Made by a program: the position numbers and the translations under genes. The notes beneath the pieces were generated by a model. The model saw only the letters and a program-made list of their open reading frames with translations. It was not told where the DNA came from and made no database searches. Shown here piece after piece: positions 20,489 to 61,793 of a stretch of DNA of 64,000 nt. Origin of the DNA: Chloropicon primus (lineage: Eukaryota); NCBI GenBank assembly GCA_023205875.1, contig CP060766.1, positions 62,001 to 126,000 of the forward strand, given 5' to 3'. Every line of letters starts with the position of its first letter. Within the stretch, counting starts at the first letter, position 1.

Positions 20489-21343
20489 ATGAGGCGTCCC
20501 ACGAGACAAAGTCCCAGAACACGCACCAGGTCGACGGCGGCGACGACAGCAGCGACGACCGACGCCGACGGTGATGACAAGGGAGGACTGCTCGCAAAGC
20601 CAACGCTTCGGGATGCCATCTGTTGCGTTCTTCAAAATGCGGGAGGGAGGAGCTTGCACTACAATGAGATCCTTGAGAAGATCCAGGCCAAGAAGTTGTA
20701 TGTTTTCATGCGTAAGGATGGTTCGCTTTCTTTTGATCCGAAGAAAATGGGAGCCAGTGTCAATACTGTTTGCAACAAGAACTCCCGCAACAAGAACCCC
20801 CACTTTGCTCGCACTGCACCCGGAACATACGCAATTGCCGCTGACTCCTTGAATGTGTCCAATATTCAAGATCATGTCAGGCCCTCACCGCTTGGTGATG
20901 CCATCTCTCGCGTTCTTCAAGATGCGGGAAGGAGTTTACGACCCAAAGCGACGACCGACGCCGACGGTGATGACAAGGGAGGACTGTTCACAGGTGGTCC
21001 AGATCCAGCGCAGGTGTTGATAACTATGATGCGAGACAACACACATCGCATGACTGCTCGCAATCGAAAGACTGCTCGCAATCAAAAGAGAACGCTTCGG
21101 GATGCCATCTATCGCGTTCTTCAAGATGCAGGGAGGAGCTTGCGCGTCAAAGAGATCCTTGTCCGGATCCAGGCCAAGAGGTTGTATGTGTTCAGGCAGA
21201 AGGGTGGTTCTATTTGTCAAAATCTAGAGAGATTGCGGAACCGTGTGAGCTCTACTTGTATAAAGAGCCCCTGCTTTGTTCGCACTGCACGTGGACTATA
21301 TGCCATTGCCAAGGAATACTTGAATCGATCAACCACTGGCTGA
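20489..21343 (+). CDS. HARE-HTH domain protein, copy 1 (chimeric; SHOCT-like tail lies out of frame downstream)
   Basis: TLRDAICCVLQNAGGRSLHYNEILEKIQAKKLY...ASVNTVC...FARTAPGTYAI; two complete domains plus one truncated. Confidence 0.7.
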   Translation: MRRPTRQSPRTRTRSTAATTAATTDADGDDKGGLLAKPTLRDAICCVLQNAGGRSLHYNEILEKIQAKKLYVFMRKDGSLSFDPKKMGASVNTVCNKNSRNKNPHFARTAPGTYAIAADSLNVSNIQDHVRPSPLGDAISRVLQDAGRSLRPKATTDADGDDKGGLFTGGPDPAQVLITMMRDNTHRMTARNRKTARNQKRTLRDAIYRVLQDAGRSLRVKEILVRIQAKRLYVFRQKGGSICQNLERLRNRVSSTCIKSPCFVRTARGLYAIAKEYLNRSTTG

Positions 21344-22347
21344 ATCAGGAGCTGAATGAGGAGGACTCCAACGCCGCTGCCAACAACAACAACAACAACA
21401 ACATTATGAGTTCTCCCTATGCTTTGGTTTTGAGAGAGGCTCTCGAGTCCGGTCTGATGACGGAGGAGGAGTACGCCGAAGCCGTGCAGGAGGCCCAACG
21501 TGTTGGAAGCAAGTCACCGGAGGAGAAGAAAGAGATCGAGGACTACAACGAGGCGTTCTAGGTCGTTGTCGAGGACGCATCTCTTCTGTTGAGTGAAGAG
21601 CAAAAATTTGGTGTGAAGAGAGAATACCTCGAAGAGGTCGGGCTCAGCAAAGCTCGTAGTCGTCCGTCAAAGAGAAGACGACGCAAGACGGTCCCTTCCA
21701 TCGTCAAGGTCAAGCAGGAAGAGTGATGAGGGAGTGTTTAGGGTAGAGCGAGTAAGCCGTACAAGACAGTTGATGAAATGTAGATACAAATATGATCACT
21801 CTGTAGTCTGTGCCCTGACAGCAGTCTTTTCTCATCACCATCGTCATCCTCATCGACGCCGCCCCCGACCCGAGACCGCCGCGTACGTTACAAAGCAAGC
21901 AAGTGGCAGATCCAACTCATTTCTTGATCCAACACTAACCTTACGACCAAGCAAGTCCTTCCCTCTTGCCCTCGCCCCCTTCTCCAAAACAATGGGTTTC
22001 AGAATCCCTAGGCCGGAGAGAGAGGATAACGCATGAGCGGATAACGCTCGTTCTCATTTGGCGGCGGCGCATCACGTGGGAGAGAGGGTCTTTGTCGAAG
22101 AACTTTGTGCACGGACGGGGACGGCGAAGGGGAGGAGGTGTTGAAAGAACGGAAGCGCGTCTCAAGGGCTTTCCATTGATACCTCGGCTGAAGGTTTTGG
22201 CAAAAAAGAGTGATCCCTCGCGCCCTTTGAGGTTCTCAGAGGATCTCAGAAGTTTGTTTGTGAGCTCGGTTCGTGAAGAGGAAGGGGAGGGACGTCTTCG
22301 AAGGAACTCGTGGAGCAGTGCAGTGTTGTGCGGTGCTTTATTTCATC

Positions 22348-23265
22348 ATGAGGCGTCCCACGAGACAAAGTCCCAGAACACGCACCAGGTCGATGGCGGC
22401 GACGACAGCAGCGACGACCGACGCCGACGGTGATGACAAGGGAGGACTGTTCACAGGTGGTCCAGATCCAGCGCAGGTGTTGATGACTATGATGCGAGAC
22501 AACACACATCGCATGACTGCTCGCAATCAAAAGAGAACGCTTCGGGATGCCATCTGTTGCGTTCTTCAAAATGCAGGGCGGAGCTTGCGCGCCAGAGAGA
22601 TCCTTGAGAAGATCCAGGCCAAGAAGTTGTATGTTTTCATGCGTAAGGATGGTTCTGTTTGTTCTTCCTCTGACGCAATGCAGACACGTATCAGGTATGC
22701 TTGTCGAACGACCCCAAGCATTGCTCGGACTGCATACGGAGCATATGGAATTGCCAAGGAATCCTTGAATGGGTCCAATATTCAAGATGCTGTCAGGCCC
22801 TCACCGCTTGGTGATGCCATCTCTCGCGTTCTTGAAGATCAGGGAGGGAGCTTGCGCGTCAAAGAGATCCTTGCCAAGATCCTTGCCAAGAAGTTGTTTG
22901 TCTTCAGGCGGAAAGATGGCTCTGTTTCTAATGATCCGAAGAAAATGCGAGCCAGTGTCAATACTGTTTGCAACAAGAACCCCCGCTTTGTTCGCATTGC
23001 CCTGGGAACGTATGCCATTGCCAAGGAGTGCTTGAATGGAGCCACCATTGACGAGCTGAATGAGGAGGACTCCAACGCCGCTGCCAACAACAACAACAAC
23101 AACAACATTATGAGTTCTCCCTATGCTTTGGTTTTGAGAGAGGCTCTCGAGTCCGGTCTGATGACGGAGGAGGAGTACGCCGAAGCCGTGCAGGAGGCCC
23201 AACGTGTTGGAAGCAAGTCACCGGAGGAGAAGAAAGAGATCGAGGACTACAACGAGGCGTTCTAG
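22348..23265 (+). CDS. HARE-HTH domain protein, copy 2 (two domains + SHOCT-like motif)
   Basis: Two LxDAIxxVL..G.SL...EIL.KI.AKKL...F.R...G.Y.I domains; LREALESGLMTEEEYAEAVQ. Confidence 0.75.
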   Translation: MRRPTRQSPRTRTRSMAATTAATTDADGDDKGGLFTGGPDPAQVLMTMMRDNTHRMTARNQKRTLRDAICCVLQNAGRSLRAREILEKIQAKKLYVFMRKDGSVCSSSDAMQTRIRYACRTTPSIARTAYGAYGIAKESLNGSNIQDAVRPSPLGDAISRVLEDQGGSLRVKEILAKILAKKLFVFRRKDGSVSNDPKKMRASVNTVCNKNPRFVRIALGTYAIAKECLNGATIDELNEEDSNAAANNNNNNNIMSSPYALVLREALESGLMTEEEYAEAVQEAQRVGSKSPEEKKEIEDYNEAF

Positions 23266-24051
23266 GTCGTTGTCGAGGACGCATCTCTTCTGTTGAGTGA
23301 AGAGCAAAAATTTGGTGTGAAGAGAGAATACCTCGAAGAGGTCGGGCTCAGCAAAGCTCGTAGTCGTCCGTCAAAGAGAAGACGACGCAAGACGGTCCCT
23401 TCCATCGTCAAGGTCAAGCAGGAAGAGTGATGAGGGAGTGTTTAGGGTAGAGCGAGTAAGCCGTACAAGACAGTTGATGAAATGTAGATACAAATATGAT
23501 CACTCTGTAGTCTGTGCCCTGACAGCAGTCTTTTCTCATCACCATCGTCATCCTCATCGACGCCGCCCCCGACCCGAGACCGCCGCGTACGTTACAAAGC
23601 AAGCAAGTGGCAGATCCAACTCATTTCTTGATCCAACACTAACCTTACGACCAAGCAAGTCCTTCCCTCTTGCCCTCGCCCCCTTCTCCAAAACAATGGG
23701 TTTCAGAATCCCTAGGCCGGAGAGAGAGGATAACGCATGAGCGGATAACGCTCGTTCTCATTTGGCGGCGGCGCATCACGTGGGAGAGAGGGTCTTTGTC
23801 GAAGAACTTTGTGCACGGACGGGGACGGCGAAGGGGAGGAGGTATTGAAAGAACGGAAGCGCGTCTCAAGGGCTTTCCATTGATACCTCGGCTGAAGGTT
23901 TTGGCAAAAAAGAGTGATCCCTCGCGCCCTTTGAGGTTCTCAGAGGATCTCAGAAGTTTGTTTGTGAGCTCGGTTCGTGAAGAGGAAGGGGAGGGACGTC
24001 TTCGAAGGAACTCGTGGAGCAGTGCAGTGTTGTGCGGTGCTTTATTTCATC

Positions 24052-25101
24052 ATGAGGCGTCCCACGAGACAAAGTCCCAGAACACGCACCAGGTCGATGG
24101 CGGCGACGACAGCAGCGACGACCGACGCCGACGGTGATGACAAGGGAGGACTGTTCACAGGTGGTCCAGATCCAGCGCAGGTGTTGATGACTATGATGCG
24201 AGACAACACACATCGCATGACTGCTCGCAATCAAAAGAGAACGCTTCGGGATGCCATCTGTTGCGTTCTTCAAAATGCGGGAGGGAGGAGCTTGCACTAC
24301 AATGAGATCCTTGAGAAGATCCAGGCCAAGAAGTTGTATGTTTTCATGCGTAAGGATGGTTCGCTTTCTTTTGATCCGAAGAAAATGGGAGCCAGTATCA
24401 ATGCTATTTGCAACAAGAACTCCCGCAACAAGAACCCCCACTTTGCTCGCACTGCACCGGGAACATACGAAATTGCCGCTGACTCCTTGAATGGGTCCGA
24501 TACTCAAGGTGCTGTCAGCACCTCACCGCTTGGTGATGCCATCTCTCGCGTTCTTCAAGATGCAGGAAGGAGTTTACGACCCAAAGAGATCCTTGCTAAG
24601 ATCCTTGCCAAGAAGTTGTTTGTCTTCAGGCGGAAAGATGATTCTGTTTCTAATGATCCGAAGAAAATGCGAGCCAGTGTCAACACTGTTTGTAGCCGGA
24701 ACCCCCGCTTTGTTCGCACTGCCCTGGGAACATATGCCATTGCTACTGACTCCTTGAATGGGTCCAATGCTCAAGTTGCTGTCAGCGCCGCACCACTTCG
24801 GGATGCCATCTATCGCTTTCTTCAAGATGTGGGAGGGAGCTTGCACTACAAAGAGATCCAGGCCAAGATCCAGGCCAAGAAGCTATATGTGTTCAGGCGT
24901 ATGGATGGTTCGCTTTCTTTTGATCAGAAGGCAATGTGGTCCAGTGTCAGAACTGTTTGTTCACAGTCTCCTCTCTTTGTTCGCACTGAACCGGGAACAT
25001 ACGCGATTGCCAAGGACTTGAGAAAGGCTCTCGAGTCCGGCCTGATGACGGAGAAGGAGTACGCCCAAGCCGTGCAGCAGGCCCAGCGTTATGAGTCATA
25101 A
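24052..25101 (+). CDS. HARE-HTH domain protein, copy 3 (three domains + SHOCT-like motif)
   Basis: Three domains; LRKALESGLMTEKEYAQAVQ; the stop codon is created by a 14-nt insertion. Confidence 0.75.
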   Translation: MRRPTRQSPRTRTRSMAATTAATTDADGDDKGGLFTGGPDPAQVLMTMMRDNTHRMTARNQKRTLRDAICCVLQNAGGRSLHYNEILEKIQAKKLYVFMRKDGSLSFDPKKMGASINAICNKNSRNKNPHFARTAPGTYEIAADSLNGSDTQGAVSTSPLGDAISRVLQDAGRSLRPKEILAKILAKKLFVFRRKDDSVSNDPKKMRASVNTVCSRNPRFVRTALGTYAIATDSLNGSNAQVAVSAAPLRDAIYRFLQDVGGSLHYKEIQAKIQAKKLYVFRRMDGSLSFDQKAMWSSVRTVCSQSPLFVRTEPGTYAIAKDLRKALESGLMTEKEYAQAVQQAQRYES

Positions 25102-36214: not shown

Positions 36215-36639
36215 TGCTTGCTCTGTCTGCTCTTCGGTGGAGTGCCGCAAGCAAAACCCAGTCAACCAAACAACGACGTGTTCCATTAATTCTATGAAGA
36301 TGGGGTTCGATTCTCCCAACAACAATAGGATCCTAATCTGTGGAAAAAGAAAGAAAGCCTGGAATGATGAACATGATATTCACGGAGAAATAAATTCATG
36401 AAGCTCACATAACATTACCTATCCTGTTAGGCGTGAAACTAGTTTCGTTTGAGAGGCACTCTCGTGTGAGTTTTAGTGTTTCATTTTTTTCTGAAAATAA
36501 TCACATCGGCTCTTTCTCGTGAGCCTCTTATCCAGGGGGTATATAAGGCGAAGTCGACCAACAGAGCGCCTCACTTTTACGAACACGAGCTCGTACAAAC
36601 ACACACAACAACAAACCCAAACACCAAATCATCATCATA

Positions 36640-37242
36640 ATGGAGTCCGAGAGAAGATCCACCATGTCCAGCCTCAAGGGACAGTTGTCCAACGTCGAGG
36701 GCTCTGTCAAGAGCATGAAGGCCGCCGTCGTTGTCGGTTCCGTCTTGACCGTTGCCTGCTTGGCCGCCGTCTTCGGAGTCACCATCCTCGCCAACGAGGT
36801 CTCCAAGGAGGTTAAGGTTTCCAACGGAACCCTCACCGCCAAGAACGGACAGGCTGTCTTGACCACCAACTTGATCGCCACCACGAACGTCAACAGCGTC
36901 CTCCCAAAGGCCATTGAGTTGACCCACAACAACGTCGATATTGTTGCCAAGGTCAACGCCGTCGTTTCCGAGGGTGCCAAGACTACCTTGATCTGCGACG
37001 ACCTCGTCTACACCAGCGAGAACGGACAGGGCTCCACCCAGGTCACCTCTGGCTCCGTCTTGGAGTCCGTTTTGGACAACACCGTTGAGAAGAGAAACAA
37101 CGAAGATTCCAGCATGGATCGTTATTGTGATCGCCAAGTTCATCATTGGCGCTGGCTGTGACGGAATCGCCGCGAGCGAGGCTTTCCTGGATACGGCAAG
37201 GCCATCCAGAAGGCCATCCAGTTGTGCAGCGACTGGATCTAA
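36640..37242 (+). CDS. Membrane-anchored peptide-precursor-like protein, copy A (in-frame TGA at 37159-37161; probably disrupted or mis-called)
   Basis: Shared N-terminus MESERRSTMSSLKGQ...AVVVGSVLTVACLAAVFGVTILANEVSKEV; TLICDD; VEKR; the frame continues past TGA to TAA 37242 (...GYGKAIQKAIQLCSDWI). Confidence 0.65.
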
Positions 37243-37526
37243 AGGACCTGAATGAGAAACCCATATAATATACAGTTTTTTCGATATACAGTTTTTCGAT
37301 ATACAATTTAGTTCTGTTGGTGACCATCTTAGCCCGCGATCAGTAAAACATATTAGTTATGTACTTTGGAAGCCTTCTTTAAAGGCGATGCACTTGCACA
37401 CATACTTCTCTTCTCATGACTGGAGATGCAATAATTGATTTGGATACTTTTGTTAAGAAATTTCTTTCCACTGTATATTATATATTTCTTCCGAGTAAAA
37501 CCTTAAGGATTAGGAAAGGAAGTAAT

Positions 37527-38093
37527 TTACTGGTTCTCCTTCAACCACTCTCTGGCCCAAGCGGCACCCTTCTTGACGAGCCACTGAACGACGGCCATGA
37601 CGCACTTTCTCATGCTAGGCTTCCTCTTGCACTTCTTGCCGTAGTCCTGGTTAAGGCTTCTGAGCTCCAAGCTGTCCTCAGAGTCAAGGAAAGATCCCTC
37701 ACGGATGAGGACCTCCTCACCGATGACAACGATGTCGTCGCAGATGGTGGTGACGGTGGTTCCCTGGGTAACAACAGCGTTGACAGCGAAGACTCCGTTG
37801 AAGGAGCCGAAGTCAGCGACCACGCTCTCGGCAAGACCAGAAGCCTTGTTGGAGGTGTAGGTGGTGGTGGTCAAGACAGCCTGTCCGTTCTTGGTGGAGA
37901 GGGTTCCGTTGGAAACCTTAACCTCCTTGGAAACCTCGTTGGCGAGGATGGTGACTCCGAAGACGGCGGCCAAGCAGGCAACGGTCAAGACGGAACCGAC
38001 AACGACGGCGGCCTTCATGCTCTTGACAGAGCCCTCGACGTTGGACAACTGTCCCTTGAGGCTGGACATGGTGGATCTTCTCTCGGACTCCAT
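37527..38093 (-). CDS. Membrane-anchored peptide-precursor-like protein, copy B
   Basis: Same N-terminus; TTICDD; LELR then SLNQDYGKKCKRKPSMRKCVMAVVQWLVKKGAAWAREWLKENQ. Confidence 0.8.
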   Translation of the reverse strand: MESERRSTMSSLKGQLSNVEGSVKSMKAAVVVGSVLTVACLAAVFGVTILANEVSKEVKVSNGTLSTKNGQAVLTTTTYTSNKASGLAESVVADFGSFNGVFAVNAVVTQGTTVTTICDDIVVIGEEVLIREGSFLDSEDSLELRSLNQDYGKKCKRKPSMRKCVMAVVQWLVKKGAAWAREWLKENQ

Positions 38094-38501
38094 TATGATT
38101 TGGTGTTTGGGTTTGTTGTTTTTGTGTGTGTGTGTGTTTGTACGAGCTCGTGTTCGTAAAAGTGAGGCCCTCTGTTGGTCGACTTCGCCTTATATACCCC
38201 CTGGATAAGAGGCTCACGAGAAAGAGCCGATGTGATTATTTTCAGAAAAAAATGAAACACTAAAACTCACACGAGAGTGCCTCTCAAACGAAACTAGTTT
38301 CACGGATGATATGATAGGCCTTATCGTGTGAGTTTCATTGTTTTTTCTATTTTTCACAGCTTCCACCAGGCTCTCTCTTGTGATTTTAATTAATCCCAGT
38401 GGGGTATATAAGGCGAACTCAACACACAGAGCGCCTCACTTTTACGAACACGAGCTCGTACAAACACACACAAAAACAACAAACTCAAACACCAAATCAT
38501 A
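38094..38501. promoter_or_regulatory. Bidirectional promoter with two GGGGTATATAAGGCG TATA boxes
   Basis: TATATAA at 38190-38196 (-) and 38405-38411 (+), each about 90-100 bp from an ATG; further copies at 36540 (+), 40087 (-), 40302 (+). Confidence 0.75.
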
Positions 38502-39104
38502 ATGGAGTCCGAGAGAAGATCCACCATGTCCAGCCTCAAGGGACAGTTGTCCAACGTCGAGGGCTCTGTCAAGAGCATGAAGGCCGCCGTCGTTGTCGGT
38601 TCCGCCTTGACCGTTGCCTGCTTGGCCGCCGTCTTCGGAGTCACCATCCTCGCCAACGAGGTCTCCAAGGAGGTTAAGGTTTCCAACGGAACCCTCACCG
38701 CCAAGAACGGACAGGCTGTCTTGACCACCAACTCCTTCTTCACCGATAAGGCTAACAGCAACACTGAGTCCGTGGTCTTGAACTCTAAGGACGGTGCTAC
38801 CAGCGGAGTCTTCGCTGTCAACGCTGTTGTCACTGTGGGAACCAAGGCCACCATGATCTGCGACGACATCGTTGTTGTCAGCGAGAACGGTGCCAACGAC
38901 ATCACCATCGCTGAGGACTCCATCTTGAACAGCCTCATGCAGGAGGTTGAGGCCAGAAGTGTGAGCAAGTTGCCCAAGTGGCATCCATTCTGGTGGGCTG
39001 TTGGAAAGTTCAAGGCCTACATCTATGAGAACAGACAGGAGATCTGGGACTACGGAAAGAGATCTAGTGCTACCATGGACATGTGCGGTGTCGCTTGCGA
39101 CTAA
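38502..39104 (+). CDS. Membrane-anchored peptide-precursor-like protein, copy C
   Basis: Same N-terminus; TMICDD; VEAR then SVSKLPKWHPFWWAVGKFKAYIYENRQEIWDYGKRSSATMDMCGVACD. Confidence 0.8.
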   Translation: MESERRSTMSSLKGQLSNVEGSVKSMKAAVVVGSALTVACLAAVFGVTILANEVSKEVKVSNGTLTAKNGQAVLTTNSFFTDKANSNTESVVLNSKDGATSGVFAVNAVVTVGTKATMICDDIVVVSENGANDITIAEDSILNSLMQEVEARSVSKLPKWHPFWWAVGKFKAYIYENRQEIWDYGKRSSATMDMCGVACD

Positions 39105-39372
39105 AGAAGATCAATTGTCTAAAATATAATATGATATTTATGCAAAAAGTAACTACTTTTTCGAATTGAACGCAATGTGATGGAAGCACGGAATCTACAG
39201 CAGGAACAAGTCTCTGGTTACAAGTAACTTACTTGTGCGCCGTAGTCGACCTCGAGAAAACGTTGAACACCACCAAAGCAAACTTCAACATTGTCTGCGA
39301 AAGAATCAACTTTTGCATAAATATCATATTATAACAGAGATGGTGAATTTTGTTTTAGACAATTTATCTTCT

Positions 39373-39996
39373 TTAGCCGCAAGCGACACCGCACATGTCC
39401 ATGGTAGCACTAGATCTCTTTCCGTAGTCCCAGATCTCCTGTCTGTTGTCCCAGAGGTAGTCATATGCACCATGAATAAGCTTCGTGGTGTACTTCTCGC
39501 AAACCTTCTTCCAAGCACCAAACCAGCCGCACATACCGTTCACGCTTCTCTTCTCGACACTGTCACTCAGGTTGTTCAACATCGAGTCCTCAGTAACCTG
39601 GACATCGGTCTCACCGCCCTCCTGGGAGACAACGACGTCGTCACAGATGAGGGTAAGCTTGGTTCCCTGGGTGACAACAGTGTTGACGGCGAAGGTACCG
39701 GTCATGTCCTGATCAGCAAGGGTGACAACGGCGGTGGACGTGGAGAACTTTGCGGTGTAGTACATGTTGGTGGTCAAGACAGCCTGTCCGTTCTTGGCGG
39801 TGAGGGTTCCGTTGGAAACCTTAACCTCCTTGGAGACCTCGTTGGCGAGGATGGTGACTCCGAAGACGGCGGCCAAGCAGGCAACGGTCAAGACGGAACC
39901 GACAACGACGGCGGCCTTCATGCTCTTGACAGAGCCCTCGACGTTGGACAACTGTCCCTTGAGGCTGGACATGGTGGATCTTCTCTCGGACTCCAT
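39373..39996 (-). CDS. Membrane-anchored peptide-precursor-like protein, copy D
   Basis: Same N-terminus; TLICDD; VEKR then SVNGMCGWFGAWKKVCEKYTTKLIHGAYDYLWDNRQEIWDYGKRSSATMDMCGVACG. Confidence 0.8.
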   Translation of the reverse strand: MESERRSTMSSLKGQLSNVEGSVKSMKAAVVVGSVLTVACLAAVFGVTILANEVSKEVKVSNGTLTAKNGQAVLTTNMYYTAKFSTSTAVVTLADQDMTGTFAVNTVVTQGTKLTLICDDVVVSQEGGETDVQVTEDSMLNNLSDSVEKRSVNGMCGWFGAWKKVCEKYTTKLIHGAYDYLWDNRQEIWDYGKRSSATMDMCGVACG

Positions 39997-40323
39997 TATG
40001 ATTTGGTGTTTGAGTTTGTTGTTTTTGTGTGTGTTTGTACGAGCTCGTGTTCGTAAAAGTGAGGCCCTCTGTTGGTCGACTTCGCCTTATATACCCCACT
40101 GGGATTAATTAAAATCACAAGAGAGAGCCTGGTGGAAGCTGTGAAAAATAGAAAAAACAATGAAACTCACACGATAAGGCCTATCATATCATCCGTGAAA
40201 CTAGTTTCGTTCGAGAGGCACTCTCGTGTGAGTTTTCGTGTTTCATTTTTTTCTGAAAATAATCACATCGGCTCTTTCTCGTGAGCCTCTTATCCAGGGG
40301 GTATATAAGGCGAAGTCGACCAA

Positions 40324-45313: not shown

Positions 45314-46870
45314 TTACGAATTAGCCTTCATCCAATCGACGACGTGCTGGTGATTGTAGTACTTCGCCTCTCTTCTGCAATCCTCTGGGTTCCAATCACA
45401 AGGCGGATCCTGGCTTCGAGCCCACTGCAGAACCTCAAGGTGACCTCTTCGAGCTGCCCCATCACAAGTATACTTGTTCCAAGGGCAAGGCGGGTCCTGG
45501 CTTCGAACCCACTGCAGGACATCAAGGTGACCTCCTCGAGCTGCGTACCAACAAGTCCCCGCGTTCCAATCACAAGGCGGATCCTGGCTTCGAGCCCACT
45601 TCAGAACATCAAGGTGACCTCCTCCAGCTGCCTCATAACAAGTCCTCGAGTCCCAATCGCAAGGCGGGTCCTGGCTTCGAAGCCACTGCAGAACCTCAAG
45701 GTGACCTCTCATAGCTGCCATCCCACAAGTCCCCGCGTCCCAAGGGCAAGGTGGATCCTGGCTTCGAAGCCACTGCAGAACCTCAAGGTGACCTTCTAGA
45801 GCTGCATCACCACAAGTCTGCTGGTCCCAAGGGCAAGGCGGATCCTGGCTTCGGAGCCACTGCAGAACGTCAAGGTGACCTCCTCGAGCTGCCCATTTAC
45901 AAGTCGCCCAGCCCCAATCACAAGGCGGGTCCTGGCTTCGAGCCCACTGCAGAACGTGAAGGTGACCTCCTTTAGCTGCCCAATCACAAGTCAACTCGTC
46001 CCAATCACAAGGCGGGTCCTGACTTCGAGCCCACTTCAGAACATCAAGGTGACCTCCTGCAGCTGCCTCATAACAAGTCTCCTCGTCCCAAGGGCAAGTC
46101 GGGTCCTGGCTTCGAGCCCACTGCAGAATGTGAAGATGACCTCTTGAAGCTGCCTCTTTACAAGTCTCGTAGTTCCAATCGCAAGGCGGGTCCTGGCTTC
46201 GAAGCCACTGCAGAACATCAAGGTGACCTCCTCGAGCTGCCCAATCACAAGTCAACTCGTCCCAATCACAAGGCGGGTCCTGGCTTCGGAGCCACTTCAG
46301 AACGTCAAGGTGACCTCCCCGAGCTGCATAAGAACAGGTCCACACATTAAACCCGTACCCCTCGCTCCTCAACCATTCCAGCAACTCAATGTGACCTCCT
46401 GCAGCAGCTCCTGTAGCTGCTACCACTTCATGATCCTCGCGATCGATATTCAAAGGGATCCCTTGGCTCACCAACCACTCCATCACCTTCTTGCTGCCCT
46501 GGAAAGCGGCGAGAAACATCAGGTCAGAGTCGTACAAGTGGTCGTCGTACTCGCCCTCTCTCAACTCTATCGGCCCTCCCTTCCTCCTTTTGAACGACCG
46601 AAGCACCCACTGGAACCAACCCAAACTGAAGCGAGGCATCTGCTCGAACAACTTGTCGTCCGTCAGGTCCGTCTTCAGAGCAACCTTCTTCTTCGGATCA
46701 GGGTTCGCCGTTGTCACCGCCTCGAAGAACATCTTGCAGGTCAACCCGAAAGCGACCCGGTCGTAGTCGGCCACATGCGTGCCAATGACGCTCCACAGTA
46801 CCCCCGGCAGCACGTCCAGTGCATCCCTGCCCTCCCTCCTCTGCCTCTTGCTCTCCATCGTCTCCTCCAT
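45314..46870 (-). CDS. F-box-like + 11 x 29-aa ankyrin-like repeat protein, copy 1
   Basis: LDVLPGVLWSVIG...DRVAFGLTCKMF; repeats TCxxAAxxGHLxVLQWxRSQDPPCxWxxx. Confidence 0.85.
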   Translation of the reverse strand: MEETMESKRQRREGRDALDVLPGVLWSVIGTHVADYDRVAFGLTCKMFFEAVTTANPDPKKKVALKTDLTDDKLFEQMPRFSLGWFQWVLRSFKRRKGGPIELREGEYDDHLYDSDLMFLAAFQGSKKVMEWLVSQGIPLNIDREDHEVVAATGAAAGGHIELLEWLRSEGYGFNVWTCSYAARGGHLDVLKWLRSQDPPCDWDELTCDWAARGGHLDVLQWLRSQDPPCDWNYETCKEAASRGHLHILQWARSQDPTCPWDEETCYEAAAGGHLDVLKWARSQDPPCDWDELTCDWAAKGGHLHVLQWARSQDPPCDWGWATCKWAARGGHLDVLQWLRSQDPPCPWDQQTCGDAALEGHLEVLQWLRSQDPPCPWDAGTCGMAAMRGHLEVLQWLRSQDPPCDWDSRTCYEAAGGGHLDVLKWARSQDPPCDWNAGTCWYAARGGHLDVLQWVRSQDPPCPWNKYTCDGAARRGHLEVLQWARSQDPPCDWNPEDCRREAKYYNHQHVVDWMKANS

Positions 46871-47384: not shown

Positions 47385-48941
47385 TTACGAATTGGCATCG
47401 ATCCATTCGATGACGTGCTGGCGATTGTAGTACTTCGCCTCTCTTCTGCAATCCGCTGGGTTCCAATCACAAGGCGGATCCTGGCTTCGAGCCCACTGCA
47501 GCATGTCAAGGTGACCTCTTTCAGCTGCAGCAGAACAAGTATACTTGTTCCAAGGGCAAGGCGGGTCCTGGCTTCGAACCCACTGCAGGACATCAAGGTG
47601 ACCTCCTCGAGCTGCGTACCAACAAGTCCCCGCGTTCCAATCACAAGGCGGATCCTGGCTTCGAGCCCACTTCAGAACATCAAGGTGACCTCCTCCAGCT
47701 GCCTCATAACAAGTCCTCGAGTCCCAATCGCAAGGCGGGTCCTGGCTTCGAAGCCACTGCAGAACCTCAAGGTGACCTCTCATAGCTGCCATCCCACAAG
47801 TCCCCGCGTCCCAAGGGCAAGGTGGATCCTGGCTTCGAAGCCACTGCAGAACCTCAAGGTGACCTTCTAGAGCTGCATCACCACAAGTCTGCTGGTCCCA
47901 AGGGCAAGGCGGATCCTGGCTTCGGAGCCACTGCAGAACGTCAAGGTGACCTCCTCGAGCTGCCCATTTACAAGTCGCCCAGCCCCAATCACAAGGCGGG
48001 TCCTGGCTTCGAGCCCACTGCAGAACGTGAAGGTGACCTCCTTTAGCTGCCCAATCACAAGTCAACTCGTCCCAATCACAAGGCGGGTCCTGACTTCGAG
48101 CCCACTTCAGAACATCAAGGTGACCTCCTGCAGCTGCCTCATAACAAGTCTCCTCGTCCCAAGGGCAAGGCGGGTCCTGGCTTCGAGCCCACTGCAGAAT
48201 GTGAAGATGACCTCTTGAAGCTGCCTCTTTACAAGTCTCGTAGTTCCAATCGCAAGGCGGGTCCTGGCTTCGAAGCCACTGCAGAACATCAAGGTGACCT
48301 CCTCGAGCTGCCCAATCACAAGTCAACTCGTCCCAATCACAAGGCGGGTCCTGGCTTCGGAGCCACTTCAGAACGTCAAGGTGACCTCCCCGAGCTGCAT
48401 AAGAACAGGTCCACACATTAAACCCGTACCCCTCGCTCCTCAACCATTCCAGCAACTCAATGTGACCTCCTGCAGCAGCTCCTGTAGCTGCTACCACTTC
48501 ATGATCCTCGCGATCGATATTCAAAGGGATCCCTTGGCTCACCAACCACTCCATCACCTTCTTGCTGCCCTGGAAAGCGGCGAGAAACATCAGGTCAGAG
48601 TCGTACAAGTGGTCGTCGTACTCGCCCTCTCTCAACTCTATCGGCCCTCCCTTCCTCCTTTTGAACGACCGAAGCACCCACTGGAACCAACCCAAACTGA
48701 AGCGAGGCATCTGCTCGAACAACTTGTCGTCCGTCAGGTCCGTCTTCAGAGCAACCTTCTTCTTCGGATCAGGGTTCGCCGTTGTCACCGCCTCGAAGAA
48801 CATCTTGCAGGTCAACCCGAAAGCGACCCGGTCGTAGTCGGCCACATGCTTGCCAATGACGCTCCACAGTACCCCCGGCAGCACGTCCAGTGCATCCCTG
48901 CCCTCCCTCCTCTGCCTCTTGCTCTCCATCGTCTCCTCCAT
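47385..48941 (-). CDS. F-box-like + 11 x 29-aa ankyrin-like repeat protein, copy 2
   Basis: Near-identical to copy 1 apart from the last repeat, the cap and two point changes. Confidence 0.85.
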   Translation of the reverse strand: MEETMESKRQRREGRDALDVLPGVLWSVIGKHVADYDRVAFGLTCKMFFEAVTTANPDPKKKVALKTDLTDDKLFEQMPRFSLGWFQWVLRSFKRRKGGPIELREGEYDDHLYDSDLMFLAAFQGSKKVMEWLVSQGIPLNIDREDHEVVAATGAAAGGHIELLEWLRSEGYGFNVWTCSYAARGGHLDVLKWLRSQDPPCDWDELTCDWAARGGHLDVLQWLRSQDPPCDWNYETCKEAASRGHLHILQWARSQDPPCPWDEETCYEAAAGGHLDVLKWARSQDPPCDWDELTCDWAAKGGHLHVLQWARSQDPPCDWGWATCKWAARGGHLDVLQWLRSQDPPCPWDQQTCGDAALEGHLEVLQWLRSQDPPCPWDAGTCGMAAMRGHLEVLQWLRSQDPPCDWDSRTCYEAAGGGHLDVLKWARSQDPPCDWNAGTCWYAARGGHLDVLQWVRSQDPPCPWNKYTCSAAAERGHLDMLQWARSQDPPCDWNPADCRREAKYYNRQHVIEWIDANS

Positions 48942-57934: not shown

Positions 57935-60900
57935 CTAGTTTGCCTTGAGAACAAAATCGGAATCGTCGTCCTCGTCGTCCGAGTAGACGTCGTCGTTGTT
58001 GTTGTTGTTGTTGGTGGTGGTTTGGTGGACAGGCCCAGGCGCCGCGGCGTCCCTGGCGTCCTCCGCCGCGACGACGACGGTGCCCGGGGTCACGTCGGGG
58101 CACAACTTCTTGAAATTCTTCTGCAGAACAAAGTAGTCGAGCTTGAAGTCGCCCACGAGCTGCACGGCCGCGACGGGCGGGAAGGCAGGGAAGGCGCACA
58201 TGTTCCTGTCCCTGGTGTAGTTCTGCATCACCTTGGCCATCCCGGTGGCGGAGAGGCACGTGAAATTCGTGCCGTCCTTGTTGAGGGGGTTGTCCCTCTG
58301 GATGTACTTGTACGCGTCCACCCTCTTGGACAGGGGTTTGGTGCTCTTCCTAAAGGCGATGGCGGCGTCGAGGCACCTCAGGCGGTACTGCAGCCCCGCC
58401 GTCGTGGGGGGGATCCAAGAGACGTCGCCCTCCTGGGCGACGTAACCGATGAACCCCTCCTCGTCCTCCTCCTCCTCGTCCACGTCGTCCCCCTCCTCCT
58501 CCATGGCGGCGTCCTCGTCCTCGTCGAGGTCCCTGGGGACCCACGCGCCCGGGATGATCCTTGGGTTGCGGTTAAAGTGGTCGTGGTCCAGAAGCTTGTC
58601 CTTGATGGCGCCCTCGAACTCGCCCAGGATGTCCCTCAGGTCCTCCAGGGCCGCGGCGGACCGCACCTTCGCCATCCAGACGGAGGGGCCGTCCCACTCC
58701 TCGCTCTCAAACGAGTCCGCAGGCAGAGCCTGGTAAATGTCCAGCATGTCCCCCTTGAGCTTCTCCACCAAAAATCCAGCGGCCTTGGCCTCCTTGGAAT
58801 CGTAGTCCACCTGCTGCGAGGGGGGCTTCTTCCCCTCCTTGACGAGGATGGCAGAGGCCTCCGTCGGATACTCCACGATGAACTCGCGGCTTGGCTCTGG
58901 CATCAGTATCTTACAGCGTCGCGCCGGAAGGCTGACGAGGAGGTCTTGGGCCTTTGCCTTGAGGGCCTCCAGGAGCTTGCTCTCCCTCGCGCCCCGCGGG
59001 TTGAGTCGGCTCACGAGCAAGTCCAAAGAGTCCTTGTCCTTGATCACCTTCAGGCTCTGGTCCTTGTAGCTCTCCACGACAAGCACAGCGTCGCTCTTTT
59101 CCTTGGAGAGCTTCATGTACCAGTACCTGTTGAACCTTCTGTCGAGGCCTAGCGGGCGCCTGTTGATCTCCTCGGTGAGCACCTGCAACTTCTCGCCAAT
59201 GTCATTCTTCTCCAACACGGTGGTCTCCAGCTCCGCCTTGAGCTCCGCCTCGTTGAGGTTGCTCACGATCTTCTCTCTCTCTGGGCTCACCGCGATGTTG
59301 CTGGCGTTTGCCGCGGCAGTAGCCTCGGCCGTTGCCACCGCCTGCCTGAGCTTCTTCTCCTCTCTCTGCACCTCCCTCAGCCTCTTGGACAGAGCGTCCT
59401 TCTCCTTAATCGCGGCTTCGATTTGCTGGTACAAGGAGGGGCACTCCAGCACAGCGGTGCAGAGAGCCGCGAGGCACGCCGTCCTCTCAAACAGGGTCAA
59501 GTCGTTGTACTCAGAGACAGCCAGTTTGCGCACCCAGCCCTCGCCTCTTCTCAGCTTGGTCTGCTCAGGCTTCTCGCCATTCTTCACCACCTCCTTCTTC
59601 TCCGGGCTGTTGTTCTCGCTCTTCACCTCCTTCACCTCCTCCTCCTCCTCCCCCTCCTCCTTTACAACCTTCCCCTCAGCCAGGTCCTTCTTCCTCTTCA
59701 GCTGCCTCCTGTGCCAAGAGCAGATGACCCTCAAAGCGTACTTGTGGTTGCCAACCTTTTCAAAAACGAAGGAATCCCTGCTAAGCGCCCCATTGACGCT
59801 GGCCTCTGGCGTCTTGTTCCCTCCCATAGACCCAGTCCTAAGGCCAAGCTCATTCATCTTGTCGGTGATCGCCACCGAGGTCATTCCCTCCACCCCAGCC
59901 TCCTTGAGCACGGTCCAGGCGGCCCCCTTAATGGTGCCTGGCCTGCACGTTGCAGGTGGCTTCATCTTGGGCCCTTCGCTGTCGTCCTTCACCACGGTCT
60001 CCCCCGACTCGGCCTTCTTCTTCAAGACGGGCCTCTCGGGGCCATACCCAAGGATCACGAGAAACTGCCTCATGACCTCGGGCCACGTCAGGTAGTTCCT
60101 CTGCGCGCGCAGCAGGTCAGAGCCAAAGTGCCACTCCCAGATCTCCCCGAGATGCTTCGCAAAGTTGTGCACAACCCTATCCAGGCCGCTTATTTGCCCG
60201 CCCTTGTGCTCAAAGCCATCCTCCTGGTTGACAAGCGAGTGCGACTCCTCCACGTCAGCGAGAAGGAGCTTGAGAAGGGCCATGTGGAGGTCCGCCAGTT
60301 GCTTGGACTCCACGCCGCAAGCAAGGTAACCAACCAGGCTGCTCAGGGGCACTGGCTTGACGTTCGTCACAAACGAGTAGTCGCGGACAAACTTCCAGAT
60401 CATCAGAAGGTCCTGCTGCACCTCTGGGCTCATCTGCTTGCGCATCATCTCGGGCAGGTCCGAGGTGTCGAAAAATGGAACCATCGCCACCTCCTCTGGT
60501 GGGAAGCTCGGGAGCTTGAGCCCCTTCACGTCGACCTCGACTTCCATCCCATTCCCCGTGGCCTCCTGCTCGTTCTTGATGGCCAGCGCCATTTCTTCCC
60601 TCTCGAGGTCCTCGTCTTCCACCACCTGCTTCTTCTTCTCCTGCAGGAGCTTTGCGGCGGCTTTCTCCTCGGCGGCTTTCAGCCTCTCAAACTCCCTGAG
60701 CCTCTTCCTCTCGCGCAACTCCTCCTCCCTCTTCCTCTTCAGCTCCTCCTTCATCAGCTGCTTCTCGATCCTCGCCTTTGCCCTCTCCTCCTCCCTGAGC
60801 CTCTTCATCTCTTGGATCTCCCTCTCCTTCTCAAGCTTTTCTGCCATCCTCTTCTGCCGCTCCAGTTCCTTCCTCTCCATCATCTCGAGCTTGAGCTGCA

Positions 60901-61793
60901 TCTTGAGCGCCCTCTCCGCCTCCCTCTCGGCGGCCCTCTGCCTGCGGATGGCCTCCTGCTCCCTCTTCCTCAGCTCGATCTCCTCCCTCTTCTTCGACCT
61001 CTCCTCCTCCCTGACCCGGTTCAGGAGCCTTGAGAGCTCCTGCCTCTCCTGCTGCCTGGCGCTCCTCTTTGTGCTCCCGCCCCGTCCCCGGCCGGCGGGC
61101 AAAGGGATCTGATCAAAGTAAAGCGCGAGCGTGGGTCCATTGTCCTTGAACTCCAGCTTGGGGTACTGCTCGCTTCCCTCGACCAGGAGCATCTTGGCCT
61201 TGGAGATGATCTTCGAGGCCAGCTCCGATTTGTTGGTGTGCTGCAGGTCGCCGCTCGCTCTTCTCCGCCTCCTGCCGCCGCCTGACAAGGGCCTCCTCAC
61301 CCCGGATCCATCCAGACCCACGCTGTCCCCCCCCGTCTTGGACTTCTTCCGCCTCTTGCAGAACCACTCTCTCACCTGGAGGGTGGTGAGCGCCAAATTG
61401 TTCGACAACTTCTTGTACTGGTCGTCGTTCGGGTAGTTGTCCATCAGGTACGCCGCCTCGAGGGCTGTCCACTGCTCCTGGGTCTTCTGCTGCCTGGGGG
61501 CCCTCTCTCTCTTCACCCCCACGGTCACTTTGGCTGGGGAGTCCCTCTCAGGCTCCTCGGGAGGAGCCTCCTCCTCCTCCTCCTCCCCCACCCCCTTCGT
61601 CGAGGCCTTGGCATCATCATCTGAAGAAGATAAAGCGATAAAGAGTCAGTGACGTGAGGTCCCCAGCACAAGAGAAAAGCGCTCCTCTCCTCCACTCACC
61701 TTCCGGTTCCATCCCGATGATCTCGTCGTCGTTCTGCGCAGCGGCAGTGTTCGTCCCAGGCATCCTTCCCGCCACTTGTTCCTCCTCTTGCAT
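57935..61793 (-). CDS. Homeobox-DDT-HARE-HTH-WHIM chromatin protein (RINGLET/HB1-like)
   Basis: Exons 61793-61700 and 61620-57935; homeobox QVREWFCKRRKK, DDT DLLMIWKF..LHMALLKLLLADVE, LTWPEVMRQ, HARE-HTH PGTIKGAAWTVL...KTPEASVNGALSRD, WHIM PLGLDRRFNRYW. Confidence 0.88.

What the first reader, a model, noticed from the sequence alone, without database searches (positions are those of the whole stretch)
36640..39996. Four-gene family: constant membrane-anchored prodomain + hypervariable bacteriocin-like C-terminal peptides
Seen: four intronless genes share a nearly identical first ~76 aa (one TM helix), then a diverged region that keeps VN(A/T)VV..G...T.ICDD. An acidic spacer ends in VEKR / LELR / VEAR / VEKR, followed by very different Trp-rich, amphipathic-looking tails of about 40-60 aa. 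The tails share an aromatic-L/I-x-x-N core (WLKENQ, YIYENRQEIWDY, YLWDNRQEIWDY) and YGK. Known: KR/xR after an acidic propiece is the usual kexin/subtilase layout of antimicrobial and signalling peptide precursors. The leaderless bacteriocins of the aureocin A53/lacticin Q class have a K-Y-G..K-A-V-Q-W-A-W-A-N-K..I-L-D-W pattern (from memory) that these tails resemble. Inference: an algal system that releases diversified antimicrobial or recognition peptides from a conserved carrier. I know of no description of it.
Basis: partly seen in the sequence, partly recalled or inferred. Interest (0 to 1): 0.9.

Follow-up and report, generated by a model that had tools for sequence, protein, structure and literature searches.

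The report
Algal hypervariable peptide-precursor gene family
Four neighbouring genes of the marine green picoalga Chloropicon belong to an undescribed family in which an almost invariant membrane-anchor head and an acidic middle part are predicted to carry, and likely release at one invariant arginine motif, very diverse tryptophan-rich, cysteine-paired tail peptides, which would be the first gene-encoded peptide arsenal of this kind seen in ocean picoplankton.

Summary
The four genes are real. They belong to a family found only in Chloropicon and unnamed marine contigs: 255 clusters at 90% identity, 72 at 50%. No Pfam family, solved fold or paper was found for it.

All members share:
- an almost invariant N-terminal 62 residues (short cytosolic stretch plus hydrophobic helix);
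- a variable five-strand beta region;
- an acidic spacer;
- an Arg invariant in 94 of 94 aligned members;
- a roughly 55-residue tail rich in Trp, with an even Cys count in 92 of 94.

The 5' part is homogenised within genomes (dS about 0) yet under purifying selection between lineages. The rest diverges at dN/dS of 0.7-2. Pro-region charge mirrors tail charge (rho -0.68; 21 of 26 independent pairs).

The conserved junction is R-x-[L/M/V]-x, the consensus of S1P/SBT6.1 subtilases, and becomes RSLL/RKLL/RRLL in distant relatives. It is not a strict KR site: 43 of 94 members lack the dibasic pair.

Three of its details do not:
- the aureocin-like resemblance;
- the shared tail motif;
- tail A, which is out of frame.

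Transcription, cleavage and activity were not tested.

The parts
36640..37161 (+). Gene A, ORF as it stands (173 aa). Family member with the invariant N-terminal module and beta region. The reading frame is broken just after the VEKRN junction.
37096..37242 (+). Gene A tail region. The orthologous tail is readable first in the +1-shifted frame and then, from about 37176, back in the original frame (stop at 37240-37242). This is either an assembly error or a recent pseudogene.
   Evidence: three-frame translation compared with P0006 and P0037
37527..38093 (-). Gene B (188 aa)
   Evidence: It is at least 90% identical to C. primus HOP50_01g05660 and 03g24360.
38502..39104 (+). Gene C (200 aa)
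   Evidence: Its closest relative is C. primus A3770_03p24390.
39373..39996 (-). Gene D (207 aa)
   Evidence: It is 96% identical to C. primus A3770_01p05830.
36721..36792 (+). Hydrophobic helix of A (residues 28-51, AAVVVGSVLTVACLAAVFGVTILA). The same segment lies at 37941-38012(-) in B, 38583-38654(+) in C and 39844-39915(-) in D.
   Evidence: It is the best conserved stretch in the distant relatives.
37650..37670 (-). Junction motif of B: L-E-L-R-S-L-N (invariant Arg145)
38946..38966 (+). Junction motif of C: V-E-A-R-S-V-S (Arg152)
39538..39558 (-). Junction motif of D: V-E-K-R-S-V-N (Arg150)
37084..37104 (+). Junction motif of A: V-E-K-R-N, with the first frame change directly after it
37530..37658 (-). 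Tail of B (43 aa, 2 Cys, cationic)
38958..39101 (+). Tail of C (48 aa, 2 Cys)
39376..39546 (-). Tail of D (57 aa, 4 Cys). AF2 predicts a helix-turn-helix, residues 157-201, at pLDDT 64-73.
36398..36639 (+). Repeated promoter and 5'UTR of A. It holds a TATA-like GGGGTATATAAGG at 36536 and the palindrome TACGA-N8-TCGTA at 36578.
38094..38501 (.). Divergent promoter between B and C, with TATA-like boxes at 38188(-) and 38401(+)
39997..40323 (-). Promoter and 5'UTR of D (TATA-like box at 40085), plus an orphan second TATA-like copy at 40298(+) left by the inverted duplication
   Evidence: (repeat I1, 576 nt, 97%)
39017..39130 (+). 3' end of C. It is homologous to the 3' end of D (39347-39460, 93% complementary), which explains the shared ..ENRQEIWDYGKRSSATMDMCGVAC ending.
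   Evidence: repeat I6

Best explanation
Each gene is predicted to encode a secretory-pathway precursor: an almost invariant N-terminal signal-anchor (or long signal peptide), an acidic beta-sheet pro-region and, after an invariant Arg in an R-x-[L/M/V]-x motif, a hypervariable tail of about 55 residues that is Trp-rich, Cys-paired and helical, and that is likely cut off by a subtilase and released or displayed outside the cell.

Shown by the sequences:
- the modular architecture;
- the invariance of the Arg;
- the even Cys counts in the tails;
- concerted evolution of the 5' module within genomes, with fast divergence of the rest;
- inverse co-variation of pro-region charge and tail charge.

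Inferred:
- N-in topology;
- cleavage at the motif, more likely by an S1P/SBT6.1-type enzyme after the fourth residue of R-x-L-x than by a strict kexin after K-R;
- masking of the tail by the acidic pro-region until cleavage;
- that the tails are membrane-active effector peptides used against bacteria or competing plankton. Signalling or recognition is the second choice.
For: 1. Family and architecture. There are 255 clusters at 90% identity and 72 at 50% identity among 1.84 billion representatives. All listed named members are Chloropicon (12 of 120). In alignment A2 (the 4 window proteins plus 90 of the 120 listed hits), 45 columns are invariant, nearly all in residues 1-62.

2. Junction motif.
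- Arg is present in 94 of 94.
- P1' is S or N in 83.
- P2' is L/M/V/I in 79.
- P3' is N or S in 72.
- Conservation stops exactly after this four-residue R-x-L-x.
- P2 is K in only 51.

3. Distant relatives keep the Arg in 11 of 11 rows of A3, followed by SLL, KLL, RLL, SLM or KLQ. RxxL/RxLx is the stated consensus of AtS1P/SBT6.1, SBT3.5 and mammalian S1P (PMC13082318, passages). Chlamydomonas has a subtilase whose best human match is SKI-1 (PMC6313938, table passage).

4. AF2 puts the motif in a disordered linker (residues 146-157, pLDDT below 50) between a beta meander and a helical hairpin.

5. Tails.
- The Cys count is 0, 2 or 4 in 92 of 94.
- W is 5.1% in tails against 0% elsewhere.
- Helical amphipathicity exceeds the tails' own shuffles (33 of 93 at p<=0.05).

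6. Charge compensation.
- Spearman rho is -0.68 (n=93).
- It is -0.71 over 49 clusters at >=70% identity and -0.66 over 29 clusters at >=55%.
- In 46 non-overlapping nearest pairs rho is -0.59, with 21 opposite-sign changes against 5 same-sign (p 0.0025).

7. Evolution.
- N-terminal dS is 0-0.018 among the four paralogues, against 0.48-1.03 in the middle region.
- L002, L003 and L004 have identical N-terminal DNA but different tails.
- Between lineages, pS is 0.15-0.67 with pN 0.03-0.19.
- Mid-region dN/dS is 0.66-1.01. Tail dN/dS is 1.4-2.1 in the C-D and L004-L005 comparisons.

8. A distant subfamily carries 7-8 tandem CxxC...G-R units on the same N-terminal module. This is the layout of multi-copy peptide precursors.
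Against: - No transcript, cleavage product or activity was seen.
- The metagenome contigs are genomic and show no poly(A) ends.
- P1 of the proposed S1P-type site would be N or S, which is not among the cleavage sites quoted in the passages read.
- Two hits left out of A2 (P0059, P0117) have no Arg at the expected place.
- Tails are not uniformly cationic: 44 have charge >=+2 and 27 have <=-2. Eighteen of 94 are hydrophobic enough to be a second membrane span.
- The window's own tails are not significantly amphipathic.
- Charge compensation would also arise if an uncleaved ectodomain merely had to keep a constant net charge. It vanished at the coarsest clustering (11 clusters, rho -0.03).
- The pairwise dN/dS values above 1 rest on 5 synonymous differences each.
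- Whether the hydrophobic helix is an anchor or a cleaved signal peptide (invariant Ala at -1, Gly at -6 before N-E-V-S-K) could not be decided.
- Whether Chloropicon has an S1P orthologue was not tested.
Confidence: 0.5

Rival explanations
1. Uncleaved variable surface proteins. The protein stays whole as a type II membrane protein, and its variable C-terminal hairpin is displayed on the cell surface. It would serve cell-cell recognition or variation against viruses and grazers. The invariant Arg motif would be structural, or a docking site.
For: The N-terminal anchor is invariant, and its helix is the most conserved part of the protein, which fits a permanent membrane function. A constant net ectodomain charge would also explain. 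Paired Cys and a frequent N-x-S/T near the membrane (69 of 94) fit any extracytoplasmic domain. Eighteen of 94 tails are very hydrophobic.
Against: Conservation around the Arg extends over exactly four residues in a disordered acidic linker. In distant relatives it becomes RSLL, RKLL or RRLL, a protease consensus. The tandem CxxC..GR relatives are hard to read as a surface domain.
Confidence: 0.22
2. The same precursor idea, but processed by a kexin/furin-type convertase directly after K-R. The mature peptide would then begin with the conserved S/N-L-N.
For: P2 is K in 51 of 94 members and P3 is E in 65. An acidic propiece followed by K-R is the usual convertase layout. BRICHOS-type antimicrobial peptide (AMP) precursors are thought to be cut at such sites (PMC6265681, passage). 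The tandem relatives end each unit in G-R.
Against: Forty-three of 94 members have S, A, T, D, E or L at P2, and no basic residue is conserved at P4 or P6. Distant relatives have G-R, E-R, T-R, S-R or A-R. The conserved P1'-P3' residues remain unexplained.
Confidence: 0.15
3. Two-pass membrane proteins. The C-terminal hairpin inserts into the alga's own membrane, as a channel, a holin-like protein or an organelle protein. Nothing is released.
For: Eighteen of 94 tails reach a transmembrane-like hydropathy of >=1.6 over 19 residues. AF2 gives a helical hairpin.
Against: Most tails (76 of 94) are not hydrophobic enough. Many are highly charged, from -7 to +8. Even Cys counts point to an oxidising compartment.
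Confidence: 0.08
4. The tails are homologues of leaderless aureocin A53/lacticin Q-type bacteriocins, acquired from bacteria.
Against: None of 16 tails has a Pfam match near threshold. phmmer of tails D and B against all PDB chains at E<=10 lists no bacteriocin. Tail D has no short free-standing homologue. These tails are not leaderless. AF2 gives two helices. Codon usage and promoters are shared across the whole gene.
Confidence: 0.02

Closest known systems
BRICHOS-type precursors of polychaete antimicrobial peptides (arenicin, alvinellacin, nicomicin), and Bri2/ITM2B (the latter recalled)
   Same: Both have an N-terminal hydrophobic segment, an acidic beta-rich pro-domain of about 100 residues, and a protease site followed by a short Cys-bridged C-terminal peptide. 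Peptides of different structural types sit on the same pro-domain (PMC6265681, abstract and passages). Bri2 is a type II membrane protein whose C-terminal peptide is released by furin (recalled).
   Different: There is no sequence match to Pfam BRICHOS. The main family has only one Cys in the beta region. No BRICHOS chain appears in the listed structural matches. The junction is R-x-L-x rather than dibasic. The organism is an alga and the tails are helical.
Plant propeptides cut by S1P/SBT6.1 or SBT3.5 (RALF23, GOLVEN, PROSCOOP)
   Same: The mature peptide lies C-terminal to an RxxL/RxLx motif. They are multigene families with variable peptides (PMC13082318, passages).
   Different: The plant precursors have ordinary short signal peptides and short linear peptides. 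They share no homology with this family. Here P1 would be N or S.
Animal toxin and AMP precursor families with a conserved prepro-region and a hypervariable mature peptide (conotoxins, frog-skin peptides, defensins) - recalled
   Same: The prepro-region is extremely conserved next to a fast-evolving mature part. An anionic propiece balances a cationic peptide. They are tandem multigene families.
   Different: They are unrelated in sequence. Here the conserved head is a 51-residue cytosolic-plus-hydrophobic module, homogenised by gene conversion. The tails are longer and include anionic classes.
Chlamydomonas peptide precursors processed by subtilisin-like convertases and amidated (PMC6919629 and PMC6313938; listing abstracts, plus passages of the latter)
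   Same: They show that green algae have the machinery to make bioactive secreted peptides from precursors. The distant CxxC..G-R relatives have the Gly-basic layout of amidated peptides.
   Different: There is no homology. The main Chloropicon family shows no excess of C-terminal Gly (11 observed against 9.7 expected).
Bacterial polymorphic toxins (CdiA-CT, Rhs) - recalled
   Same: A conserved N-terminal part and a variable C-terminal part are demarcated by a short conserved motif.
   Different: These are eukaryotic genes with tiny tails. No adjacent immunity-gene candidate was noticed in the ORF list. Tail classes mostly follow the mid-domain tree (38 changes against a minimum of 32), so cassette swapping is not frequent.

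Membership tests
Substrates of S1P/SKI-1/SBT6.1-type subtilases | An R-x-x-L or R-x-L-x motif at the junction | tested here: met
   Arg is present in 94 of 94, and the second residue after it is L/M/V/I in 79 of 94. Distant relatives read RSLL, RKLL, RRLL or RSLM. The consensus is taken from PMC13082318.
Substrates of S1P/SKI-1/SBT6.1-type subtilases | The motif is exposed in the lumen of the secretory pathway | tested here: inconclusive
   Even Cys counts, a juxtamembrane sequon in 69 of 94 and sub-threshold EF-hands N-terminal of the helix in two distant relatives all point to N-in topology. No topology predictor was available.
Substrates of S1P/SKI-1/SBT6.1-type subtilases | An S1P orthologue in the same organism, and cleavage by it | not tested
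   No Chloropicon genome is held, and no S8 peptidase lies in the window. Cleavage itself needs experiments.
Kexin/furin-processed propeptides | A dibasic K/R-R (or R-x-K/R-R) directly before the mature peptide | tested here: not met
   K-R occurs in 51 of 94. The other 43 have S, A, T, D, E or L at P2, and P4 is V in 62. Distant relatives have G-R, E-R, T-R, S-R or A-R.
BRICHOS domain proteins | A match to the Pfam BRICHOS profile | tested here: not met
   None of the four window proteins matches at E<=1. BRICHOS is not among the 25 families most often matched by the 94 members at E<=1 (which shows 25 of 47 families).
BRICHOS domain proteins | One conserved Asp and two conserved Cys (recalled definition) | tested here: inconclusive
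   D119 is conserved in >=90% and sits next to a Cys in most members (ICDD). A second Cys is seen only in the divergent L009 and L010.
BRICHOS domain proteins | A beta sheet flanked by helices, similar to solved BRICHOS structures | tested here: inconclusive
   The mid-domain model has five main strands plus one short helix, with core pLDDT 71-87. Foldseek PDB gives 0 hits at E<=1e-3. VIA-align wide gives a best Z of 4.8, rmsd 4.3, 64 aligned, to 5jk2_A.
Aureocin A53 / lacticin Q leaderless bacteriocins | Sequence similarity to family members | tested here: not met
   Pfam on 16 tails gives nothing near threshold. PDB phmmer with tails D and B at E<=10 lists no bacteriocin. That solved structures of these two bacteriocins are in the PDB is recalled.
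Aureocin A53 / lacticin Q leaderless bacteriocins | Made without any leader or pro-sequence | tested here: not met
   The tails are the C-terminal third of proteins of about 200 residues. No free-standing short homologue of tail D was found.

The most novel reading that the evidence does not exclude
A globally distributed picoalga encodes a private arsenal of dozens of classes of secreted, disulfide-stapled helical peptides. They are made from one invariant type II carrier, cut by a Golgi S1P-type protease and kept harmless by a charge-matched pro-region. This would be an algal counterpart of animal venom and AMP gene families, evolved independently and used for chemical warfare or communication in the phycosphere.
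Probability: 0.3. Interest if true: 0.88.

Novelty: new variant of a known kind. Interest (0 to 1): 0.72.

Why it matters
Gene-encoded peptide weapons or signals are well known in animals, plants, fungi and bacteria. As far as my searches went, they have not been described for marine picoeukaryotic phytoplankton.

Chloropicophyceae are abundant in moderately oligotrophic oceans (PMC12301720, abstract). This family is common in marine assemblies. If the tails are released and active, they would be a new class of natural peptides. They would also give a handle on alga-bacterium or alga-alga interactions in the open ocean.

The family is also a clean natural example of three things together: gene conversion freezing one module while the neighbouring module diversifies; charge co-evolution between a pro-region and its cargo; and a likely S1P-type processing site outside plants and animals. 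Each is testable with cultures that already exist.

Tried and rejected
- Own genome: none is held, so paralogue counts come from names. These give 10 HOP50_ locus tags in C. primus and 5 HKI87_ tags in C. roscoffensis.
- Pfam: nothing on the four proteins, the 94 members, 16 tails or 10 distant relatives. The best hit is noise: DUF6133 in 44 members, best E 0.011, on the hydrophobic helix.
- ESM Atlas: no usable hit.
- Structure searches:
  - Full model against Foldseek PDB: 0 hits at E<=1e-3.
  - Full model against VIA wide: only the long helix and the hairpin matched, Z<=5.4.
  - Mid-domain model against Foldseek PDB and BFVD: 0 hits at E<=1e-3.
  - Mid-domain model against VIA wide: no Z>=5.
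- Viral contigs: 34 pattern matches, none confirmed, so there is no sign of a viral origin.
- Earlier findings of this scan: nothing, by place or by sequence.
- Amidation signal in the main family: tails ending in G[KR]0-3 number 11 against 9.7 expected, so the idea was rejected. A C-terminal basic residue is enriched instead (34 of 93 against 10 expected).
- Frequent cassette swapping of tails:
  - Only 6 of 78 pairs with >=80% identical mid regions have tails below 30% identical.
  - None of 60 pairs with >=60% identical tails has a dissimilar mid region.
  - Tail class changes 38 times on the mid-domain tree against a minimum of 32 (quick IQ-TREE, LG+G4).
  - Tails therefore mostly diverge with their lineage.
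- Faster tail divergence between the window and its nearest C. primus proteins: seen in 2 of 5 comparisons (D-P0001, p 0.002; B-P0135, p 4e-5) and not in the other three.
- Codon usage as a sign of high expression: the family's usage is unlike the 13 other window genes compared, a tubulin among them (RSCU r 0.07-0.45). No cytosolic ribosomal-protein gene was available to define the optimal set, so the meaning is left open.
- Poly(A) ends on the metagenome contigs, as a sign of transcripts: none.
- Complex prediction (pro-region against tail): the queue was full at every permitted try and nothing was folded.
- Rows dropped before the counts on A2: of the 120 listed hits, 3 are the window's own proteins. 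Another 27 were left out by eye because they were truncated, began at Met9 or read through the 5'UTR. Two of these, P0059 and P0117, lack the Arg.

Full report
**What is there.** The window carries four ORFs of 173, 188, 200 and 207 codons at 36640-37161(+), 37527-38093(-), 38502-39104(+) and 39373-39996(-).
- They are arranged as two convergent pairs. The pair unit of about 1.9 kb is duplicated: direct repeats lie 1862 and 1903 nt apart, and there is an inverted repeat of 576 nt at 97%.
- The repeats include the promoters and 5'UTRs. Each gene has a TATA-like GGGGTATATAAGG about 100 nt upstream of its ATG.
- The first 76 residues differ at 0-3 positions between copies.
- tblastn finds no fifth copy in the window.
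- The neighbours are ordinary genes: a methyltransferase, an aldose epimerase and a glycerol-3-phosphate dehydrogenase.

**Correction to the observation.** Gene A's tail as read by the first stage is out of frame. Compared with its C. primus orthologue (P0006), the DNA has one extra base just after the VEKRN codons and lacks one base about 80 nt further on. The orthologous tail can be read in the shifted frame and then again in the original frame, down to a stop at 37240-37242.

**Organism and family size.**
- Protein D is 96% identical to a hypothetical protein of Chloropicon primus.
- The word-indexed search gave 255 clusters with E<=1e-3. Of the 120 listed, 12 carry organism names, all Chloropicon (10 C. 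primus, 2 C. roscoffensis). One more is labelled only 'hypothetical protein', and most of the rest are marine assembly contigs of about 1 kb.
- Names seen give 10 locus tags on chromosomes 1, 3, 14 and 16 of one C. primus strain, and 5 on chromosomes 5 and 7 of C. roscoffensis.
- An exhaustive profile search of 1.84 billion representatives found only 72 clusters at 50% identity, so the family is narrow.
- No hit in viral contigs was confirmed.

**No known family, fold or paper.**
- Pfam gives nothing above noise, and the ESM Atlas gives nothing usable.
- The two Chloropicon genome papers do not mention the family in the passages returned for my search terms. For PMC12301720 I saw the outline, abstract and passages. 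For PMC6731263 I saw passages. Their supplementary orthogroup files were not opened and may list it.
- Text searches for Chloropicon with 'gene family', with 'antimicrobial peptide', and with propeptide, bacteriocin, pheromone or hypervariable found no description.

**Anatomy.** I aligned the 4 window proteins with 90 of the 120 listed hits (A2). The 30 left out were the window's own three proteins plus 27 that were truncated, began at Met9 or had N-terminal read-through.
- Conservation is almost total over residues 1-62. It is moderate over the next 85 or so, rises again in a short motif, and is then lost.
- AlphaFold2 (mean pLDDT 63) gives one long helix over residues 7-57 covering the hydrophobic segment 28-51, a beta meander, a disordered stretch at 146-157 and a helix-turn-helix tail.
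- The beta region folded alone has a core pLDDT of 71-87.
- Neither model has a significant structural neighbour.

**The junction.**
- The Arg is present in 94 of 94 aligned members. It is preceded by V (62), E (65) and K (51; otherwise S 18, A 11, T 10). It is followed by S/N (83), L/M/V/I (79) and N/S (72). The next position is already variable.
- Two of the left-out hits, P0059 and P0117, lack the Arg.
- More distant members found in metagenome contigs and by the profile search keep the hydrophobic helix and the Arg in 11 of 11 rows of alignment A3. They have no Lys before the Arg. After it they have SLL, KLL, RLL, SLM, KLQ, TLQ or KLS.
- The conserved element is therefore R-x-[L/M/V]-x, not K-R.
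- This is the RxxL/RxLx consensus quoted for Arabidopsis S1P/SBT6.1, SBT3.5 and mammalian S1P (PMC13082318, passages).
- A Chlamydomonas subtilase has SKI-1 as its best human match (PMC6313938, table passage).
- Conservation ends exactly after the fourth residue. That fits cleavage there, but no cleavage was observed.

**The tails.**
- They average 55 residues. They hold all of the protein's Trp (5.1% against 0%) and have 0, 2 or 4 Cys in 92 of 94 cases.
- They fall into at least 32 classes with no detectable similarity between classes.
- Charges run from -7 to +8, and 18 of 94 are transmembrane-like in hydropathy.
- Helical amphipathicity is above the tails' own shuffles for the family (33 of 93 at p<=0.05) but not for the window's three readable tails.
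- None of 16 tails matches Pfam. Tails D and B match no bacteriocin among PDB sequences at E<=10. Tail D has no free-standing short homologue.

**Evolution.**
- Among the four paralogues, the first 76 codons have dS of 0-0.018, while the middle region has dS of 0.48-1.03 with dN/dS of 0.66-1.01.
- The same holds in environmental genomes. L002, L003 and L004 have identical N-terminal DNA but different middles and tails. L004 and L005 have identical middles (1 change in 87 codons) yet 35 non-synonymous and 5 synonymous changes in the tail.
- Between lineages, the N-terminal module shows pS of 0.15-0.67 with pN of 0.03-0.19.
- The head is therefore homogenised within genomes and also kept by purifying selection on the protein. 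This also shows that the annotated strand is the coding one.
- Tail classes largely follow the mid-domain tree (38 changes against a minimum of 32). Only 6 of 78 close mid-domain pairs have unrelated tails. Tails mostly diverge in place rather than being shuffled.

**Charge compensation.** The net charge of the lumenal pro-region (mean -4.0) falls as the charge of the tail rises.
- Spearman rho is -0.68 over 93 members.
- It is -0.71 over 49 clusters at >=70% identity and -0.66 over 29 clusters at >=55%. At 11 very coarse clusters it is -0.03.
- In 46 non-overlapping nearest-neighbour pairs the differences correlate at -0.59. Of 26 pairs that changed in both parts, 21 changed in opposite directions (binomial p 0.0025).
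- This is the behaviour recalled for defensin-type precursors, where an anionic propiece neutralises the cationic peptide. It could also reflect a constraint on the charge of an uncleaved ectodomain.

**A telling relative.** Five unnamed proteins (P0177, P0194, P0196-P0198) have the same N-terminal module, followed by 7-8 tandem units of 11-16 residues. Each unit has a CxxC and ends in G-R. This is the layout of multi-copy, possibly amidated, peptide precursors. It supports the view that the module is a carrier for processed peptides. The main family shows no C-terminal Gly excess.

**Verdict.** The best reading is a lineage-specific family of secretory precursors whose diversified C-terminal peptides are released at the R-x-L-x motif. 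I put the odds at about even that processing occurs, and lower that the products are antimicrobial.
- The main rival is an uncleaved variable surface protein.
- In function, the closest known systems are the BRICHOS-type AMP precursors of polychaetes (PMC6265681, abstract and passages), plant S1P-processed propeptides, and animal toxin and AMP families with conserved prepro-regions. Membership in BRICHOS, in the kexin-substrate class and in the leaderless bacteriocins was tested, and was either not met or inconclusive.
- The attempt to fold pro-region and tail as a complex could not be run.

Noticed in passing
window 37096-37242: Gene A carries two single-base frame changes relative to its C. 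primus orthologue: one extra base after the VEKRN codons and one missing base in a C run near 37176. The deposited protein for this genome (P0040) follows the broken frame.
   Followed up: partly
window 36578-36595 and 38443-38460 (on the minus strand for B and D); also L002-L008 and L013: A conserved palindrome, TACGA-N8-TCGTA, lies in the 5'UTR about 55 nt upstream of the ATG and about 30 nt downstream of the TATA-like box. The stem is kept while the 8-nt loop varies between lineages.
   Followed up: partly
window 40298-40310: An orphan TATA-like promoter copy on the + strand points towards the epimerase gene. It is a leftover of the inverted duplication of the B/C divergent promoter.
   Followed up: no
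window 36640-39996: The family's codon usage is unlike the 13 other window genes compared. It uses no GGG or GCG, AGA for 18 of 20 Arg, and GTC/GTT for 100 of 105 Val. Its RSCU correlation is 0.07-0.45 with the other genes, while 11 of those genes correlate 0.78-0.91 with tubulin. High expression, gene conversion bias and foreign origin were not distinguished.
   Followed up: partly
P0177, P0194, P0196, P0197, P0198 (unnamed assemblies): A distant subfamily has the same N-terminal module and 7-8 tandem CxxC...G-R units, which looks like a multi-copy amidated-peptide precursor.
   Followed up: partly
9 of 93 tails in A2 (e.g. P0014, P0028, P0034); L004, L005: One tail class ends in C-K-R-R-S-L-L-M-M-(G)-C. 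This is a second RR-x-L / R-x-LL motif 4-8 residues from the C-terminus (9 tails against 0.9 expected by shuffling, but the tails are related).
   Followed up: no
L003 4979-5332(-), 3' end of L006, 3' end of L002: Environmental contigs also show convergent pairs of family genes. Assemblies often break inside the invariant 5' module of the neighbouring copy.
   Followed up: no
window 10000-11909 (+): Two adjoining ORFs (459 and 181 aa) are present. The second matches the Cas12f1-like TNB domain (E 6.7e-8), so this is possibly a TnpB/Fanzor-like element in the algal genome.
   Followed up: no
window 45317-46870 and 47388-48941 (-): Two tandem, nearly identical ankyrin-repeat genes of 518 aa. For the copy examined (45317-46870), codon usage also departs from the other window genes compared (RSCU r 0.18 with tubulin).
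   Followed up: no
window 20489-25098 (+) and 57938-61444 (-): Three consecutive HARE-HTH paralogues lie in a lower-GC stretch (0.52). A fourth HARE-HTH sits in a DDT/WSD protein.
   Followed up: no
P0189, P0192 (unnamed): The most distant profile hits place the conserved helix and the ANE-x-SK motif behind a cytosolic part with sub-threshold EF-hand matches. This hints at a wider, older membrane module.
   Followed up: no
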